Below, one piece after another: positions 25,440-58,480 of a stretch of 64,000 nt of DNA. The notes below the pieces were generated by a model, which did not search any database, was not told the origin of the DNA, and saw only the letters and a program-made list of their open reading frames with translations. The stretch is from an uncultured Candidatus Saccharibacteria bacterium. Lineage in GTDB: Bacteria > Patescibacteriota > Saccharimonadia > Saccharimonadales > CAZDQS01. The translations under genes were made by a program, and so were the position numbers. Each line of letters opens with the position of its first letter. Positions within the stretch are counted from its first letter, which is position 1. Where the stretch lies: NCBI GenBank assembly GCA_964507855.1, contig CAZDQS010000003.1, positions 21,988 through 85,987 of the forward strand, given 5' to 3'.

Positions 25440-25880
25440 ATGAAGACATACAGCGCAAAACCAAGTGACGTAACCCGCAAGTGGTACGTAATTGACGCCT
25501 CTGAGGCAACTCTCGGCCGCGTCGCGACTGTTGCCGCCAAGCTTCTGACAGGCAAGGACAAGCCGATGTTTACCAAGCACATCGATGTTGGTGACTTTGT
25601 TATTGTCATAAACGCTGACAAGATTGTTGTAACCGGCGGCAAAGAAACGAAGAAGAAGTACTACAGCCACAGCGGTTACCCTGGCGGCTTGTACGAAGCA
25701 ACACTTACAGAGAAGATGGAAAAAGACCCGACATTTGCTATCACCAATGCTGTCCGCGGCATGCTTCCGGTCAACAAGCTCCGCGATGGACGTCTGCAGA
25801 GACTTAAGGTCTATGCTGGTGCCGAGCATAAGCACGAGGCCCAGAAGCCCGAAAAGATTTCAGTAAAGGAAGGTAAGTAA
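25440..25880 (+). CDS. rplM: 50S ribosomal protein L13
   Basis: 146 aa with a uL13 family sequence. Confidence 0.95.
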   Translation: MKTYSAKPSDVTRKWYVIDASEATLGRVATVAAKLLTGKDKPMFTKHIDVGDFVIVINADKIVVTGGKETKKKYYSHSGYPGGLYEATLTEKMEKDPTFAITNAVRGMLPVNKLRDGRLQRLKVYAGAEHKHEAQKPEKISVKEGK

Positions 25881-25882
25881 TT

Positions 25883-26281
25883 ATGGCGACACAAAACTAC
25901 TTCTATGGTCTTGGCCGCCGCAAGAGTTCGACCGCACGCGTTCGGCTTATGAACGGCAAGGGGACGATTACAGTCAATGGCAAGCCTGCTAGTGAGTACT
26001 TTGCTGACAGCAAGTATCTACTCAACGAACTGAGCCGCCCGTTTGCAGTGCTCGAGCAGGAGAACAAGTACGATGTGAGCGCCGTCGTTTCTGGTGGCGG
26101 ACACAACGGTCAAGTTGATGCTATCCGTCTCGGTATTGCCAAGGCACTGGCTGTCATGAACGAAGATCTAAAAGGCACATTACGCCGTGCTGAACTCTTG
26201 GGCCGCGACCCACGCGAGAAAGAACGCAAGAAGTTCGGTCTCAAAGGTGCACGCAAGCAACGCCAGTTCACCAAGCGTTAA
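25883..26281 (+). CDS. rpsI: 30S ribosomal protein S9
   Basis: 132 aa with a uS9 sequence ending ...KQRQFTKR. Confidence 0.95.
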   Translation: MATQNYFYGLGRRKSSTARVRLMNGKGTITVNGKPASEYFADSKYLLNELSRPFAVLEQENKYDVSAVVSGGGHNGQVDAIRLGIAKALAVMNEDLKGTLRRAELLGRDPREKERKKFGLKGARKQRQFTKR

Positions 26282-26300
26282 TTCGCATACCGCACAACAC

Positions 26301-26338
26301 AAAACGACGCTCTTACATCAGGGCGCCGTTTTGTTTTA
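26301..26338 (+). terminator. intrinsic terminator after rpsI
   Basis: Stem AAAACGACGC/GCGCCGTTTT (one mismatch), followed by GTTTTA. Confidence 0.65.
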
Positions 26339-26367
26339 TGTGACAATTTGACAAAGTGTGGTAATAT
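26339..26367 (+). promoter_or_regulatory. candidate promoter of pheA leader (GTGACA-N16-TGgTAATAT, extended -10)
   Basis: The -10 TAATAT at 26362-26367 is preceded by TGG. It ends 8 nt before the leader-peptide ATG, which suggests a leaderless transcript. Confidence 0.4.
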
Positions 26368-26374
26368 ACCATTG

Positions 26375-26449
26375 ATGTCAAACGTAACATATCGCTTTTT
26401 CTTTTGGTTTACACCTTTTGCCAAGGCGGTTTGTTCGCTGCGCTCATAA
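26375..26449 (+). CDS. candidate Phe-rich leader peptide (24 aa: MSNVTYRFFFWFTPFAKAVCSLRS)
   Basis: Hand-translated. 5 Phe and 1 Trp within 8 consecutive codons, immediately upstream of prephenate dehydratase. Lies upstream of a terminator hairpin. Confidence 0.5.
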   Translation: MSNVTYRFFFWFTPFAKAVCSLRS

Positions 26450-26474
26450 ACGCATACATCACCAAAAAGTAATC

Positions 26475-26503
26475 AAGCCGCCAACAAGGCGGTTTTTCGT
26501 TTT
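26475..26503 (+). terminator. attenuator terminator in pheA leader
   Basis: 8-bp stem AAGCCGCC/GGCGGTTT (26475-26482 with 26488-26495), loop AACAA, then a T-run. It ends 17 nt before the pheA ATG, just ahead of the SD AAGGAG. Confidence 0.55.
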
Positions 26504-26519
26504 ATAAGGAGTAATATAG

Positions 26520-27377
26520 ATGTCAGAACTGGTTGGAGTACAAGGAAGAGAAGGCTCGTATCACGAAGAAGCAGCTCGCTCTCTGTGGGGCGAAAATGTT
26601 GATATTGCCTATATTGATACGTTTCGTGAGCTTTTTGATAGCATACGCACAGGTAAAGTCGGCCGCGGCGTTGTTGCAATTGCTAATAACTCCATAGGGT
26701 TTATACCTGAGACGTATGCGCTTCTCGTGTCCGAAGAGGCGAGCAAATACCAGATACGTGGCGAAACATATGTGCGTGTAGAGCACCAGCTGCTTGGGTT
26801 GCCGGGCACGAACTTATCACAAGTACGTGAAGTGCACTCCCAGTCGCCTGCCATCAATCAATGCACCGATTTTCTTGAGACCCATTTGCCGCGTTTCACC
26901 GTAGTAGAGCAGGATGACACGGCCCTGAGTGCCGAACTAGTCAGTACATGGGGCGACCCCACCAAAGCTGCTATCGCCAGCCGGACCGCCGGCAAACTAC
27001 ATGGTCTCGAACCGATAGCTGCTAACATTCAGGACGACCCAGATAACATAACTCGATTCCTGATACTCGAGAAGCGAGCCGATTCTCAAGAGATTGCAGA
27101 TTCAGACAAGACGTCAGCAATACTACAAACTGGCCAAGCTCCAGGCTCACTGTATAAAGCGCTCGGAGTCTTTGCCGATCGAGAAGTAAACATAGCGACG
27201 CTGCATTCTGCTTTCGTCCCCAACTCTGCGTTCAAGATGAAATTCTTGATAGAATTCGACGCTGGCGCGGAAGAAGCGGAGGTCATCACAAAAGAACTTC
27301 GAGCAATGTCCTGCCAGCTCGCGACACTTGGCAGTTATCAGTGTTCAGAAATACCAGTAAAGGAGACTACGAAATGA
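26520..27377 (+). CDS. pheA: prephenate dehydratase (PDT + ACT domains)
   Basis: 285 aa. N-terminal PDT-like sequence (GVQGREGSYHEEAA...) and a C-terminal ACT-like region (TSAILQTGQAPGSLYKALGVFADREVNI). Confidence 0.88.
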   Translation: MSELVGVQGREGSYHEEAARSLWGENVDIAYIDTFRELFDSIRTGKVGRGVVAIANNSIGFIPETYALLVSEEASKYQIRGETYVRVEHQLLGLPGTNLSQVREVHSQSPAINQCTDFLETHLPRFTVVEQDDTALSAELVSTWGDPTKAAIASRTAGKLHGLEPIAANIQDDPDNITRFLILEKRADSQEIADSDKTSAILQTGQAPGSLYKALGVFADREVNIATLHSAFVPNSAFKMKFLIEFDAGAEEAEVITKELRAMSCQLATLGSYQCSEIPVKETTK

Positions 27378-27547
27378 CACACCATAGAAATGTCCCAGAA
27401 GCAATACAACAGGAGATACCAGATATAGAAGGCAGGGATGTTCTCCGGCAAGCACAGGAACATGATAAAAATTCAGCTGTACAGTACCTTGGCGAGGCTG
27501 CCATTAAAATAGTCACGAAGCAAGAGCTTTTCCGCGTGGATATTTAA
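27374..27547 (+). CDS. hypothetical small protein (57 aa)
   Basis: ATGA overlap with the pheA stop. SD AAGGAG 8 nt upstream. No family recognised. Confidence 0.4.
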   Translation: MTHHRNVPEAIQQEIPDIEGRDVLRQAQEHDKNSAVQYLGEAAIKIVTKQELFRVDI

Positions 27548-27568
27548 GCTTAGGGTATAATACAAGTA

Positions 27569-28597
27569 ATGAGCAAACCAGTAATCCTGACGGGACTACG
27601 CGCCAACAGTGAGTTTCACCTTGGCAACTATCTTGGTGGCATCTTGCCAATGGTTGAGCTGCAGGCTGCGCACGCCGGAGAATACCAGCTCAATATGTTC
27701 GTGCCGGACCTGCACAGCTTCACGACGCCCATAGACCACAGCAAGTTGTACAAGCAAACCATAGAGAATCTTGCAGTGTTTGTTGCAGCCGGCCTCGATA
27801 TCAACAACCCCGATACGTTCCTGTACCGCCAGAGCTACATTACAGCACACAGCGAACTCACCTGGATATTGAACTGCTTCACCTACATGGGCGAACTCAG
27901 CCGTATGACACAGTATAAAGAAAAAGGCGAGTCACAAGAGAACCAAACTGCCGGACTGTTTACCTACCCAGTGCTAATGGCGGCGGATATCTTGCTCTAT
28001 GGTGCGGAATGGGTGCCTGTTGGTGATGATCAAAAGCAGCACCTCGAGTTAGCTCGAGATTTGGCGACACGGCTAAATAACAAGTTCGGCGAGTTATTTA
28101 TCGTGCCTCATGAATGGAAAAAGCAGCTGGAATTCGCCAGCCGCGACAATGGTGTCCGTATTCGTTCACTCCGCAATCCGGAAAAGAAAATGAGTAAAAG
28201 CGTGTCAGATCCAGCTGGTACTATCATGCTTTCCGACAGTCCAGAAGAAGCTGCCAAAAAAATCATGTCAGCAACGACTGATTCAGAGGGCGTTATTAAA
28301 CTCGACTGGGAGCGCCAGCCAGGGATAAGCAACCTCCTGCAGATTACGGCACTTCTCAGCAACACACCGCTTCATGATGCCGCACGTGAATGGGAAGGCA
28401 AAACTAGCTACGGTGACTTGAAACAACACGTTGCTGAGCTCGTGAAGGACTTCTTGGTTGATGTGCAAGCCAAGCTGGCAGAAGTTGACGAGCAAACCTT
28501 ATTGTCCAAGCTCGAGCAAGATGAGGAAAAAATGCGTCATGTTGCCAACGAAACACTAGCTAAAGTGCAGCGTGCCGTCGGTTTACGTCCTGCATGA
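27569..28597 (+). CDS. trpS: tryptophan--tRNA ligase
   Basis: 342 aa, class I signature (FHLGNYLG as the HIGH variant, KMSKS), TrpRS-like sequence. Confidence 0.94.
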   Translation: MSKPVILTGLRANSEFHLGNYLGGILPMVELQAAHAGEYQLNMFVPDLHSFTTPIDHSKLYKQTIENLAVFVAAGLDINNPDTFLYRQSYITAHSELTWILNCFTYMGELSRMTQYKEKGESQENQTAGLFTYPVLMAADILLYGAEWVPVGDDQKQHLELARDLATRLNNKFGELFIVPHEWKKQLEFASRDNGVRIRSLRNPEKKMSKSVSDPAGTIMLSDSPEEAAKKIMSATTDSEGVIKLDWERQPGISNLLQITALLSNTPLHDAAREWEGKTSYGDLKQHVAELVKDFLVDVQAKLAEVDEQTLLSKLEQDEEKMRHVANETLAKVQRAVGLRPA

Positions 28598-32209: not shown

Positions 32210-32285
32210 GCCGATGTAGCTCAGTGGCTAGAGCGGCTGTTTTGTAAACAGCGGGTCGTGGGTTCGAATCCCTCCATCGGCTCCA
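32210..32285 (+). tRNA. tRNA-Thr (anticodon UGU), CCA encoded
   Basis: Manual cloverleaf: acceptor GCCGATG/CATCGGC, D-arm GCTCAGTGGCTAGAGC, anticodon loop TTTGTAA, T-arm GGGTTCGAATCCC. Confidence 0.92.
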
Positions 32286-32375
32286 TGATTAGACGCAATG
32301 CGAGAGTGTCTAATCAAGCCTCGTGTGAGGTCTAGTGAGAGAGGTGTTATACTAGAGGCCAGAAAGGCCTCTTTA

Positions 32376-32461
32376 GCAGGGGTTGTGGAGCGGTCAAACA
32401 CGACAGACTGTAAATCTGTTGGCATTCGCCTTCGGGGGTTCGAATCCCTCCCCCTGCACCA
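32376..32461 (+). tRNA. tRNA-Tyr (anticodon GUA), long variable arm, CCA encoded
   Basis: Acceptor GCAGGGG/CCCCTGC, anticodon loop CTGTAAA, long variable arm, T-loop TTCGAAT. Confidence 0.9.
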
Positions 32462-33221: not shown

Positions 33222-33290
<69 letters not shown>

Positions 33291-33296
<6 letters not shown>

Positions 33297-41398: not shown

Positions 41399-41474
41399 TG
41401 GCAGGGGAGACAGGACTTGAACCTGCGACACCCGGTTTTGGAGACCGGTGCTCTACCAACTGAGCTACTCCCCT
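41399..41474 (-). tRNA. tRNA-Trp (anticodon CCA), CCA end encoded
   Basis: The reverse complement folds as: acceptor AGGGGAG/CTCCCCT, D-arm GCTCAGTTGGTAGAGC, anticodon loop CTCCAAA, T-arm GCAGGTTCAAGTCCTGT. Confidence 0.92.
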
Positions 41475-56974: not shown

Positions 56975-57355
56975 TGGTTGCGCTCAAGACTGTTATCTGG
57001 TAGAATTGTACCTGTTGCCAAAGACAGCGACAGACCACAAGTCTTAATACGTCGCCGAGGTACAAATCAATCATTTGAATTTGTGCACTTTATAAGAGTC
57101 TTTGGTCTACGGCCAAAGGCTTTTCTATTGAACCCAGTGCATATCTTTCTCTGGGGTTCGAGGGCAAAAGTGACGAGGAAGATGGCAAGTTTCTTGTGAC
57201 AAAGCGTACCTCCCCAGGTACGGTGCGAAGCAAAAAATTGGCAGATTTCCGTCATTTTTGGCTGCAGAATAGAGAAAAGATTGCAGTGGGTTCACTAGGC
57301 AACAAAGAATTTACTAAGGTCGAGGTAAATTTCAATCTAAAAAAGGAGTCATTTT

Positions 57356-58365: not shown

Positions 58366-58386
58366 GCACAGACTTTATCTATTCAG

Positions 58387-58418
58387 AAAACCGCCTTTTA
58401 GGAGGCGGTTTTTCTTTT
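58387..58418 (+). terminator. intrinsic terminator after rplL
   Basis: Stem AAACCGCCT/AGGCGGTTT followed by TTCTTTT. Confidence 0.65.
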
Positions 58419-58480
58419 ATCATAATATTGTGAGTTACATAACTTTGTGGTATTGTGATTTTAATTCAAGGAGACTCGTA

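What the first reader, a model, noticed from the sequence alone, without database searches (positions are those of the whole stretch)
26339..26519. Phe-rich leader peptide with competing terminator/antiterminator pairings upstream of prephenate dehydratase
Seen:
- A 24-codon ORF (26375-26449) translates as MSNVTYRFFFWFTPFAKAVCSLRS. It has 5 Phe and 1 Trp within 8 consecutive codons.
- It sits 8 nt downstream of an extended -10 (TGGTAATAT), so the transcript is possibly leaderless.
- It lies 70 nt upstream of pheA.
- A terminator hairpin AAGCCGCC-AACAA-GGCGGTTT plus a T-run occupies 26475-26503.
- The 10-mer AAGGCGGTTT occurs twice, at 26423-26432 inside the leader ORF and at 26486-26495 as the terminator 3' arm. 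The upstream copy can pair with the same 5' arm (26475-26482), giving an alternative hairpin without a T-run.

Established: E. coli pheA is controlled by translation of the Phe-rich pheL leader through attenuation.

Inference: stalling at the FFFWF codons leaves the upstream copy free and favours the antiterminator. Efficient translation through 26423-26449 favours the terminator.

Caveat: a ribosome parked at the stop codon would only partly cover the upstream copy, so the geometry is not textbook.
Basis: partly seen in the sequence, partly recalled or inferred. Interest (0 to 1): 0.6.

Follow-up and report, generated by a model that had tools for sequence, protein, structure and literature searches.

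The report
Leaderless aromatic-codon attenuator upstream of pheA
A tiny, probably leaderless upstream reading frame rich in Phe/Trp codons, followed by mutually exclusive RNA hairpins, most likely switches transcription of a Saccharibacteria (candidate-phyla-radiation) prephenate dehydratase operon on when aromatic amino acids run short. It belongs to a large, so far undescribed family of such switches in that phylum, but the mechanism itself is the classical one.

Summary
The interpretation, leader-peptide attenuation, is strongly supported by comparative evidence but has no experimental test.

The window is from a Saccharibacterium. The 24-codon ORF (26375-26449) starts 7 nt after an extended -10 box. 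It is homologous to small ORFs in 12 pheA-anchored relatives and about 80 metagenome loci (73 distinct sequences).

The family shares these features:
- a promoter ending 6-10 nt before the start codon, i.e. leaderless;
- an aromatic core [Y/F]-W-F;
- a GGCGG "region 2" 14-16 nt after the last Phe codon;
- an intrinsic terminator;
- a long antiterminator helix whose extra pairs covary, including pairs with terminator-loop bases.

Genes behind the leader are prephenate dehydratase, DAHP synthase or orphan small ORFs. trpS nearly always follows.

Where two leaders occur in tandem, the pheA-proximal one carries only Phe codons at the conserved stall site. The trpS-proximal one keeps Trp. The window's single FFFWF leader precedes pheA-orf57-trpS.

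No Rfam family matches, and I found no report for Patescibacteria. The closest analogues are E. coli pheL, Corynebacterium aroR and mycobacterial leaderless attenuators. Verdict: a new member of a known kind.

The parts
26340..26367 (+). Promoter: -35 GTGACA (26340-26345), 16-nt spacer, extended -10 TGgTAATAT (26359-26367)
   Evidence: Only promoter-like site found in 25800-28000. Homologous loci have TTGACA-17-TATAAT-like boxes at the same place.
26375..26449 (+). Leader ORF MSNVTYRFFFWFTPFAKAVCSLRS. The ATG lies 7 nt after the -10 box and has no Shine-Dalgarno, so the mRNA is inferred to be leaderless.
   Evidence: Homologous ORFs occur in 12 pheA-anchored loci and 73 distinct metagenome leaders. 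The first ATG after the promoter is in frame in 62 of 62 loci.
26396..26410 (+). Regulatory codons TTT TTC TTT TGG TTT (F F F W F). The last TTT ends 14 nt before the GGCGG of region 2. A further Phe codon lies at 26417-26419.
   Evidence: The [Y/F]-W-F core is conserved: the residue before W is Y or F in 76 of 84 leaders. The spacing is 14-16 nt in all 12 pheA-anchored, pattern-independent leaders.
26383..26398 (+). Region 1 (anti-antiterminator 5' arm). It pairs with 26423-26437 and overlaps the R-F-F codons.
   Evidence: Present in the MFE and centroid folds: -15.1 kcal/mol, z = -2.4. In most relatives region 1 instead lies just 3' of the W-F codons.
26423..26437 (+). Region 2, with core GGCGGUUUG at 26425-26433. 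It pairs either with region 1 or with region 3.
   Evidence: Conserved GGCGGU block in alignment A3.
26474..26482 (+). Region 3, CAAGCCGCC. It is the antiterminator 3' arm with region 2 and the terminator 5' arm with region 4.
   Evidence: Antiterminator helix is 84% paired across 50 leaders against 38-53% in slid controls.
26488..26503 (+). Region 4, GGCGGUUU, plus the T-run: the intrinsic terminator 3' arm.
26506..26511 (+). Shine-Dalgarno AAGGAG of pheA
   Evidence: Read directly from the sequence.
26520..27377 (+). pheA: prephenate dehydratase, 285 aa. First regulated gene.
   Evidence: Pfam PF00800, E = 1.8e-50. Saccharibacterial homologues at 44-56% identity.
27374..27547 (+). Orphan 57-aa ORF. 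Its ATG overlaps the pheA stop (ATGA) and it has its own SD. Probably co-transcribed and translationally coupled.
   Evidence: No Pfam hit. No homologue among 5.8e9 proteins.
27556..28597 (+). trpS (27569-28597), with its own perfect TATAAT (27556-27561) 7 nt before the ATG. A possible secondary target of read-through.
   Evidence: A perfect TATAAT lies 6-10 nt before trpS in 29 of 42 related loci, against 1.5% of shuffles.

Best explanation
This is a ribosome-mediated (leader-peptide) transcription attenuator of a Saccharibacterium. It controls pheA and orf57, and possibly adds read-through into trpS.

**Proposed sequence of events**
1. Transcription starts at or within about 1 nt of the A of ATG 26375. 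The 24-codon leader is therefore translated as a leaderless mRNA by a ribosome that loads directly behind RNA polymerase.
2. When Phe-tRNA and Trp-tRNA are plentiful, the ribosome runs through FFFWF to the stop codon at 26447-26449.
3. Region 2 (26423-26437) is then held by region 1 (26383-26398) behind the ribosome, and is partly covered by the terminating ribosome.
4. Region 3 pairs with region 4, and transcription stops at the T-run (26493-26503).
5. When charged tRNA-Phe or tRNA-Trp is scarce, the ribosome stalls on 26396-26410.
6. The stalled ribosome covers region 1, and its leading edge ends a few nucleotides before GGCGG.
7. Region 2 is free to pair with region 3 as soon as region 3 is made (-18.1 against -12.3 kcal/mol for the terminator).
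8. The terminator cannot form, and polymerase reads into pheA.

**Shown**
- All sequence elements.
- Their conservation and covariation.
- The energetics.
- The codon make-up of paralogous leaders.

**Inferred**
- The transcription start.
- Translation of the ORF.
- Stalling.
- The response to starvation.
For: **Anatomy and energetics in the window**.

**The ORF is conserved as an ORF.**
- There are 73 distinct leaders.
- The position of W varies by whole codons.
- The first ATG after the best promoter is in frame in 62 of 62 loci, and lies 6-10 nt after the -10 box in 60 of those 62.

**Aromatic core.**
- The residue before W is Y or F in 76 of 84 leaders.
- 20% of all leader residues are aromatic.

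**Stall geometry.** The last Phe codon ends 14-16 nt before region 2 in all 12 leaders found through PheA alone.

**Antiterminator.**
- The 20-pair helix is 84.3% paired against 38-53% when slid.
- Its covariation score exceeds all 500 shuffles.
- Column 67 pairs with column 140, a terminator-loop base not fixed by my search pattern, as GC 15, UA 13 and CG 4.
- My own permutation test gives p about 1.5e-4.
- The 3' partner is non-coding, so the conservation of GUUUGUUCUGUG (which encodes VCSV) is at RNA level. Region 2 is read in other frames in L035a and L037a.

**Concerted change.** In L095b, regions 2, 3 and 4 read GUGACGG / CCGUCAC / GUGACGG.

**Function of the neighbouring genes.** Every large first gene is PDT or DAHP synthase. 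trpS follows in 49 loci.

**Codon partition in tandem leaders.**
- pheA-proximal leaders have only Phe at the conserved stall site: L035a FFF and L036a LF carry no Trp codon, and L037a FF..FFF has its single W inside region 2.
- trpS-proximal leaders keep W: YWF, YWP, YWR, AWY, W..W.W and W..W.
Against: - There are no experimental data. The transcription start, translation, termination efficiency and starvation response are all untested.
- The metagenome set was retrieved with a pattern that fixes TGGTTT, GCGGT and GGCGGTTTTT. The W-F codons, the spacing and the core pairs of that set are therefore not independent evidence. Only the flanking pairs, the ORF, the promoters and the 19 pattern-independent leaders are.
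- The permutation tests ignore phylogeny.
- Phe-codon number is not significantly higher before PDT (2.85 against 2.26, p = 0.09).
- The 1:2 hairpin is only moderately supported family-wide (64% paired). In the window it uses a different, upstream partner.
- With a modelled stalled ribosome, only 46 of 87 minimum-energy folds show the antiterminator. A kinetic argument is needed for the rest.
- The extra Phe codon at 26417-26419 would, if stalled on, cover region 2.
- Most family members precede orphan small ORFs whose link to aromatic amino acids is unknown.
- trpS has its own promoter.
Confidence: 0.8

Rival explanations
1. A nascent-peptide (arrest-peptide) sensor. The conserved ...[Y/F]WFT...AVCSVRS peptide would stall the ribosome in response to a free aromatic amino acid in the exit tunnel, as TnaC does, rather than in response to uncharged tRNA. 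The same hairpin switch would follow.
For: The peptide is conserved well beyond the aromatic codons: T follows WF in 59 of 84 leaders, and AVCSVRS recurs. Many leaders have only one codon each of Y, W and F, which is few for a hungry-codon sensor.
Against: - The conserved non-aromatic residues are explained by RNA pairing. ACC (Thr) pairs with GGU of region 2. GUUUGUUCUGUG pairs with a conserved non-coding partner.
- Region 2 is read in other frames in L035a and L037a.
- N-termini and C-termini vary in length and sequence, and stop codon position varies.
- Codon content tracks the downstream gene in tandem leaders.
Confidence: 0.07
2. An RNA-only switch, bound by a protein, a tRNA or a metabolite. 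The small ORF would be incidental and the hairpins would be set by a trans factor.
For: Strong nucleotide-level conservation of regions 2 and 3, and a long covarying helix. The 5' end AUGAACAAAC is complementary to GUUUGUUC (79% paired).
Against: - The first ATG is in frame in 62 of 62 loci, and indels before W come in whole codons.
- No match to T-box or any other Rfam family.
- Apart from the switch helices there is no conserved unpaired pocket.
- The aromatic codon core is not explained by any conserved pairing.
Confidence: 0.05
3. No regulation. A constitutive partial terminator insulates pheA from the upstream ribosomal-protein operon, and the ORF and repeat are fortuitous.
For: Intrinsic terminators built on AAACCGCC...GGCGGTTT are common in this genome; another one lies at 58377-58441.
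Against: - rpsI already has its own terminator at 26308-26325, followed by a dedicated promoter.
- The whole module is conserved in more than 80 loci with covariation.
- The 10-mer duplication is far above chance.
Confidence: 0.03
4. The leader peptide, or the released attenuator RNA, has an additional trans-acting role, as peTrpL/rnTrpL have in Sinorhizobium. This is not exclusive of attenuation.
For: Precedent in PMC7298713 and PMC6614838. The leader is very widespread and conserved.
Against: No evidence here. The conservation is accounted for by the cis structures.
Confidence: 0.05

Closest known systems
E. coli pheL-pheA attenuator (Rfam RF01859 Phe_leader); also pheM-pheST
   Same: A short leader ORF with a Phe-codon run directly upstream of a prephenate dehydratase gene. 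Alternative 1:2, 2:3 and 3:4 hairpins end in an intrinsic terminator. The logic is that stalling at Phe codons gives read-through.
   Different: - No sequence or structure homology: 19.4 bits against a gathering score of 55.
- A different phylum.
- The leader here is apparently leaderless, with no SD.
- The core includes an obligatory Trp codon and often Tyr.
- The enzyme is a monofunctional PDT without a chorismate mutase domain.
- The antiterminator in the family is a roughly 19-bp interrupted helix.
Corynebacterium glutamicum aroR leader upstream of aroF (DAHP synthase), Neshat et al. 2014 as summarised in PMC11802643
   Same: A mixed aromatic leader (Phe-Tyr-Phe) controls an aromatic-pathway gene by ribosome-mediated attenuation. 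In this family, DAHP synthase is likewise a frequent first gene.
   Different: A different phylum and sequence. aroR lacks Trp. The Saccharibacterial family is anchored next to trpS and often precedes orphan small ORFs.
Streptomyces trpS (and leuS) classical attenuators (PMC1262725)
   Same: Leader-peptide attenuation predicted in front of a tryptophanyl-tRNA synthetase gene, with Trp codons in the leader.
   Different: Here trpS is usually separated from the leader by one or more genes and has its own TATAAT box. Direct control of trpS is therefore uncertain.
Mycobacterial leaderless poly-Cys short ORF attenuators (bioRxiv 10.1101/834739)
   Same: A regulatory short ORF that begins at the 5' end of a leaderless transcript and senses supply of its cognate amino acid.
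   Different: Those act on cysteine. According to that work they do not rely on a canonical intrinsic terminator/antiterminator pair of the kind seen here. Different phylum.
E. coli trpL attenuator (Rfam RF00513)
   Same: Four-region architecture. The regulatory codons lie roughly 14 nt before region 2 (the trpL figure is recalled from my own knowledge, not checked here), so a stalled ribosome masks region 1 only.
   Different: 14.5 bits against a gathering score of 41. trpL has an SD-led leader, two Trp codons, and controls trp biosynthesis genes.

Membership tests
Classical ribosome-mediated transcription attenuator (trpL/pheL class, defined by mechanism) | Short ORF upstream of the operon, enriched in codons for the amino acid(s) related to the regulated genes | tested here: met
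   FFFWF lies before pheA (...trpS). The family core is [Y/F]-W-F, before PDT, DAHP synthase and trpS.
Classical ribosome-mediated transcription attenuator (trpL/pheL class, defined by mechanism) | Intrinsic terminator between the leader ORF and the first structural gene | tested here: met
   Stem 26475-26495 plus T-run: -12.3 kcal/mol, z = -4.3. Conserved in all relatives.
Classical ribosome-mediated transcription attenuator (trpL/pheL class, defined by mechanism) | Antiterminator that uses the terminator 5' arm and is mutually exclusive with the terminator | tested here: met
   26425-26433 pairs with 26474-26482: -18.1 kcal/mol, 0 of 200 shuffles. The family helix is 84% paired, with covariation at pairs outside the terminator stem.
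Classical ribosome-mediated transcription attenuator (trpL/pheL class, defined by mechanism) | Anti-antiterminator (1:2) that a ribosome stalled on the regulatory codons would melt, with region 2 just beyond the stalled ribosome | tested here: met
   In the window, 26383-26398 pairs with 26423-26437 (-15.1 kcal/mol, z = -2.4) and overlaps the Phe codons. The masked fold switches to the antiterminator. Family-wide, the local 1:2 hairpin is only moderately supported (64% against 27-49%).
Classical ribosome-mediated transcription attenuator (trpL/pheL class, defined by mechanism) | The leader ORF is actually translated, and read-through rises when the cognate amino acid or charged tRNA is limiting | not testable with these tools
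   Only indirect evidence: the in-frame first ATG in 62 of 62 loci, and the codon partition in tandem leaders.
Rfam RF01859 Phe_leader (enterobacterial pheL) | Covariance-model score at or above the gathering cut-off (55 bits) | tested here: not met
   19.4 bits, E = 1. No hit at gathering threshold in the window or in 19 related loci.
Rfam RF00513 Trp_leader | Covariance-model score at or above the gathering cut-off (41 bits) | tested here: not met
   14.5 bits, E = 4.1.
T-box leader (tRNA-sensing riboswitch) | Match to the T-box covariance model (specifier loop and T-box sequence) upstream of an aaRS or amino-acid gene | tested here: not met
   No T-box hit, even at E up to 10, in 26200-26700, nor at gathering threshold in the window or the 19 loci. 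The leader is only about 125 nt long.
Saccharibacterial aromatic leader family (defined here; alignment A3, model R1) | ATG 6-10 nt after a -10 box; TGG-TTT; GGCGG 14 nt later; non-coding partner ...AAACCGCC; loop; GGCGGUUUUU | tested here: met
   The window has every block. It scores 83 bits with R1, but it was in the training alignment, so that score is by construction. Members not used for training score 84-102 bits (L033b, L036b, L035b).
Leaderless mRNA | Transcription start at or within a few nucleotides of the start codon; no Shine-Dalgarno | tested here: inconclusive
   The extended -10 ends 7 nt before the ATG and there is no SD. The same geometry holds in 60 of 62 relatives. The transcription start itself is not testable with these tools.

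The most novel reading that the evidence does not exclude
The leaderless aromatic leader may be a portable starvation-sensing cassette, fixed at the rpsI-trpS junction of Saccharibacteria. Besides aromatic-pathway genes, it would drive a rapidly turning-over set of orphan small proteins. These include the window's orf57, which has no homologue in 5.8e9 proteins. They could be starvation-induced effectors of the episymbiotic lifestyle, expressed when the host stops supplying aromatic amino acids, and not mere spacers or coupling ORFs. Leaderless initiation would replace the RNA-polymerase pause used in E. coli to synchronise ribosome and polymerase.
Probability: 0.12. Interest if true: 0.7.

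Novelty: new member of a known kind. Interest (0 to 1): 0.5.

Why it matters
Almost nothing is known about gene regulation in Patescibacteria (CPR).

- It implies that these reduced-genome episymbionts monitor aromatic aminoacyl-tRNA supply through coupled leaderless translation and transcription.
- It flags a small regulon: PDT, DAHP synthase, perhaps TrpRS, and orphan small ORFs.
- It provides a covariance model for annotating Saccharibacterial genomes.
- It adds a natural set of tandem leaders whose codon content tracks the downstream gene.
- It supplies a compact amino-acid-responsive switch that could be tested in the newly tractable Saccharibacteria.

Mechanistically it is the textbook attenuator. 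A specialist would be interested but not astonished.

Tried and rejected
- **Rfam.** No family reaches gathering threshold in the window or in 19 related loci. The Phe_leader, Trp_leader and DUF2815 hits are sub-threshold and driven by the terminator.
- **UUUUGGU/ACCAAAA pairing.** The sub-threshold Phe_leader and MicC alignments suggested pairing between about 26402-26408 and 26461-26467. Relatives lack the 3' partner, so I rejected it as window-specific chance.
- **First alignment for locus retrieval.** The 36-sequence PheA alignment was too divergent. A 12-sequence one worked.
- **More Phe codons before PDT.** There is a trend only (p = 0.09), although all five leaders with 5 Phe codons precede PDT.
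- **Pfam on 49 small downstream ORFs.** Nothing, except one truncated class-II DAHP synthase.
- **Homologues of window orf57.** None found.
- **RNAalifold on A3.** It returns only the terminator, as expected for a bistable element. It neither supports nor contradicts the alternative helices.
- **Minimum-energy folding with a masked ribosome.** It gives the antiterminator in only 46 of 87 leaders. Thermodynamics alone does not decide, and order of synthesis must be invoked.
- **Automatic terminator picking.** My script failed for L036b, L037b, L056b and L151b. I checked those by eye only.
- **Second copy in the window.** None. The other weak hits to model R1 are plain terminators.
Full report
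**1. Observation**

The sequence is as described.
- A 24-codon ORF runs from ATG 26375 to TAA 26449 and translates as MSNVTYRFFFWFTPFAKAVCSLRS.
- The only sigma-70-like promoter in 25800-28000 is GTGACA-16-TAATAT (26340-26367), with a TG extension. It ends 7 nt before that ATG.
- No Shine-Dalgarno precedes the ATG, whereas pheA has AAGGAG.
- rpsI, upstream, has its own terminator at 26308-26325.
- The leader terminator is 26475-26495 plus a T-run (-12.3 kcal/mol, z = -4.3).
- AAGGCGGTTT occurs at 26423 and 26486. There are 3 copies in the window against 0.23 expected.
- pheA (26520-27377) is a prephenate dehydratase (PF00800, 1.8e-50). It is followed by a 57-aa ORF whose ATG overlaps the pheA stop, then trpS, then rluD.

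**2. Organism and relatives found through PheA (independent of the leader)**

PheA's nearest relatives (44-56% identity) come from Candidatus Saccharibacteria / Saccharimonadales. The synteny rpsD-rpoA-rplQ-rplM-rpsI ... pheA ... trpS-rluD-holB recurs in them.

Twelve distinct relatives carry a homologous small ORF, repeat and terminator in front of pheA. Their aromatic cores are:

| Locus | Aromatic core of the leader |
|---|---|
| L001 | YYFWF |
| L002 | YFYFWF |
| L003/5/7 | FWF |
| L004 | FFWF |
| L008 | YWF |
| L038 | YWF |
| L032 | FWF |
| L040 | YFYFWF |
| L035 | FFF |
| L036 | LF |
| L037 | FF..FFF |

- In all 12, the last Phe codon of the core ends 14-16 nt before the GGCGG of region 2.
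- In L035 and L037 that GGCGG is read in a different frame. Its conservation is therefore at RNA level, not peptide level.
- Saccharibacterial pheA genes in other contexts (L006, L009-L012, L015) lack the element.

**3. Family size**

I ran one metagenome scan with TGGTTT-N15-GCGGT-N{40,70}-GGCGGTTTTT.
- About 80 are true members, giving 73 distinct leader sequences. The rest are chance hits inside long ORFs.
- Caveat: the pattern fixes W-F, the spacing and the core of regions 2 and 4. In this set only the remaining features count as evidence.

Those remaining features are striking.
- A TTGACA-17-TATAAT-like promoter is present.
- The first ATG after the promoter is in frame with TGG-TTT in 62 of 62 loci, and lies 6-10 nt after the -10 box in 60 of them.
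- The number of codons before W varies from 7 to 13, i.e. by whole codons.
- The residue before W is Tyr (50) or Phe (26) in 76 of 84 leaders.
- 20% of all leader residues are aromatic.

A leaderless, translated, aromatic-codon ORF is thus a family trait.

**4. What lies downstream**

- trpS follows within 0.2-2 kb in 49 loci, essentially all those with enough sequence. L076 is an exception.
- The first gene after the terminator falls into three groups:
  - PDT: L047, L072, L089, L095, L118, L148 and the genome set.
  - DAHP synthase: class I in L042/155, L048, L076, L077, L081, L082/149, L088 and L111; class II in L145. L037 has class II after pheA.
  - In about 46 loci, an SD-led ORF of 38-128 aa with no Pfam match and almost no mutual similarity.
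- The window's orf57 has no homologue in 5.8e9 proteins.
- trpS itself is preceded by a perfect TATAAT 6-10 nt before its ATG in 29 of 42 loci (1.5% of shuffles), and rarely by an SD.
- The window has the same arrangement, with TATAAT at 27556-27561.
- trpS therefore probably has its own leaderless promoter. Read-through from the attenuator may add to its expression, but this is open.

**5. RNA structures**

*Antiterminator.* Anchoring on GGCGG and CCGCC shows that region 2 pairs with region 3 over far more than the terminator arm. In the main subfamily, GUGGCGGUUUGUUCUGUGCGUUC pairs with GAA..CAUUGAAGAAACCGCCAC. On the 50-sequence MAFFT alignment A3, the results are:
- The 20-pair antiterminator is 84.3% paired, against 38-53% for slid partners.
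- Its covariation score beats 500 of 500 shuffles.
- Column 67, two bases 5' of GGCGG, pairs with column 140, the second base of the terminator loop, as G-C 15, U-A 13 and C-G 4.

An anchored test on 87 leaders gives Watson-Crick pairing in 39 of 87 (permutation p about 1.5e-4). Where the neighbouring pair exists it is 37 of 62 (p about 5e-5). These tests are not corrected for phylogeny. Those pairs exist only in the antiterminator and were not imposed by the search pattern. The 3' partner is non-coding, which explains the nucleotide-level conservation of the VCSV codons.

*1:2 hairpin.* A local 1:2 hairpin (ACCGACAC / GUGGCGGU, directly 3' of W-F) is 64% paired against 27-49% when slid.

*5' end.* The 5' end AUGAACAAAC is complementary to GUUUGUUC: 79% paired against 37-63%. 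It may close the leader after the first ribosome has passed. That is inference.

*Divergent leaders that were found without the pattern*:
- L095b shows concerted change of all three arms: GUGACGG / CCGUCAC / GUGACGG.
- In L037b and L151b, a U in region 3 pairs with G in region 2 and with A in region 4.

**6. The window's own switch**

The folds give:

| Structure | Coordinates | Energy (kcal/mol) |
|---|---|---|
| 1:2 | 26383-26398 with 26423-26437 | -15.1 |
| 2:3 | 26425-26433 with 26474-26482 | -18.1 |
| 3:4 | 26475-26482 with 26488-26495 | -12.3 |

- The free leader folds as 1:2 plus 3:4.
- With the 5' part covered up to 10 nt beyond the last Phe codon of FFFWF, the minimum-energy fold is 2:3 and the terminator is gone.
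- Here region 1 lies upstream, overlapping the R-F-F codons, and not downstream of W-F as in the consensus. A ribosome stalled anywhere on FFFWF covers it either way.
Termination under plenty needs only the re-formed 1:2 hairpin, not full occlusion of region 2 by a ribosome at the stop codon.
- One wrinkle remains. A stall on the extra Phe codon at 26417-26419 would cover region 2. Under Phe limitation, ribosomes would already be held at the five upstream codons.

Across the family:
- 61 of 87 free leaders fold with the terminator.
- 46 of 87 masked ones fold with the antiterminator.
- The structure available before region 4 is made is more stable than the terminator-only alternative in 84 of 87 (mean difference 6.4 kcal/mol).
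- So order of synthesis matters.

**7. Tandem leaders**

A covariance model from A3 (R1) finds one copy in the window. In several relatives it finds second copies that were not in its training set.

| Locus | Upstream leader → following gene(s) | trpS-proximal (second) leader |
|---|---|---|
| L035 | FFF → pheA | ...NTYWPTDT... → trpS |
| L036 | LF → pheA | ...NYWFTDT... → orf-trpS |
| L037 | FF..FFF → pheA | ...CICWQ...SWRWH → DAHPS-II-trpS |
| L095 | YSYFWF → PDT | ...GYWRRT |
| L151 | FFTYWF | ...QAWYTDT |
| L056 | AFWF | ...YIWRYHLKRWRY |

- L033 has the canonical YWF leader after pheA.
- Where functions are split, the pheA leader loses Trp from the conserved stall site and the trpS-proximal leader keeps Trp but may lose Phe. 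L035a and L036a have no Trp codon; L037a keeps one W, but it lies inside region 2.
- This is the pattern expected if the codons are the sensor.
- The window has a single leader with both a Phe run and the Trp codon, ahead of pheA-orf57-trpS.

**8. Comparison with what is known**

*It works like:*
- E. coli pheL/pheA and trpL.
- The C. glutamicum aroR (F-Y-F) leader of aroF (PMC11802643).
- The predicted Streptomyces trpS attenuator (PMC1262725).
- In being leaderless, the mycobacterial poly-Cys short ORFs (bioRxiv 10.1101/834739).

*It is not a member of any Rfam family:*
- Phe_leader scores 19.4 against 55 bits.
- Trp_leader scores 14.5 against 41 bits.
- There is no T-box.
- Nothing reaches gathering threshold in the window or 19 related loci.

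Full-text searches for attenuators, leader peptides, leaderless mRNAs or riboswitches in Saccharibacteria, TM7 or Patescibacteria found no description. The held library is incomplete, so this is absence of evidence only.

**9. Verdict**

- The finding is real.
- It is a new family, in a new phylum, of a well-known kind of switch.
- What remains unexplained is why most copies drive orphan small ORFs, and whether trpS is a true target.

Noticed in passing
window 27556-27571; also L044-L159 upstream of trpS: trpS has a perfect TATAAT ending 7 nt before its ATG and no Shine-Dalgarno. The same holds in 29 of 42 related loci, against 1.5% of shuffles. This suggests that leaderless mRNAs may be a common expression mode in Saccharibacteria, and that trpS has a promoter of its own inside the operon.
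   Followed up: partly
window 27374-27547: A 57-aa ORF is translationally coupled to pheA (ATGA overlap) and has its own AAGGAG. It has no Pfam hit and no homologue in 5.8e9 proteins. It shares only the short motif [IV]PD[IV][AE]GRD[IV] with the small ORFs at the same position in L059, L094 and L151.
   Followed up: partly
L044-L161, first ORF after the leader terminator: About 46 loci have SD-led ORFs of 38-128 aa between the attenuator and trpS. They are almost unrelated to one another (9% mean identity). One recurrent type begins M-[DE]-x-x-EA-x-x-L-R-x-x-GVE. In several loci the stop codon of this ORF lies inside the trpS TATAAT box.
   Followed up: partly
window 26520-27377; L037 4067-5260; L042, L048, L076 and others: Reduced-genome Saccharibacteria carry isolated aromatic-pathway enzymes at this one locus: a monofunctional prephenate dehydratase, and class I or class II DAHP synthases, some very divergent (Pfam scores just above cut-off). 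I did not check whether the rest of the pathway exists in these genomes.
   Followed up: no
window 58377-58441, both strands: A bidirectional intrinsic terminator is built on the same AAACCGCC-loop-GGCGGTTT arms as the leader terminator. It holds the third copy of the 10-mer AAGGCGGTTT and gives weak partial hits to model R1.
   Followed up: partly
window 57000-57135 (+): Rfam L10_leader (RF00557) matches at 60.3 bits against a gathering score of 44. This is a ribosomal-protein autoregulatory leader. tRNA genes lie at 32210-32458, 33222-33293 and 41402-41474.
   Followed up: no
L004 (JAYVTZ010000011.1): The record is titled 'Burkholderiaceae bacterium' MAG. However, it has the Saccharibacterial rpsI-leader-pheA synteny and a PheA 48% identical to the window's. 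The contig is probably mis-binned.
   Followed up: no
A3 columns 3-20 with 73-80; for example L042 leader nt 3-10 with GUUUGUUC: The very 5' end of the leaderless mRNA, (AU)GAACAAAC, which encodes M-N-K-L, is complementary to GUUUGUUC just 3' of region 2 (79% paired against 37-63% when slid). It could sequester the start codon after the first round of initiation.
   Followed up: partly
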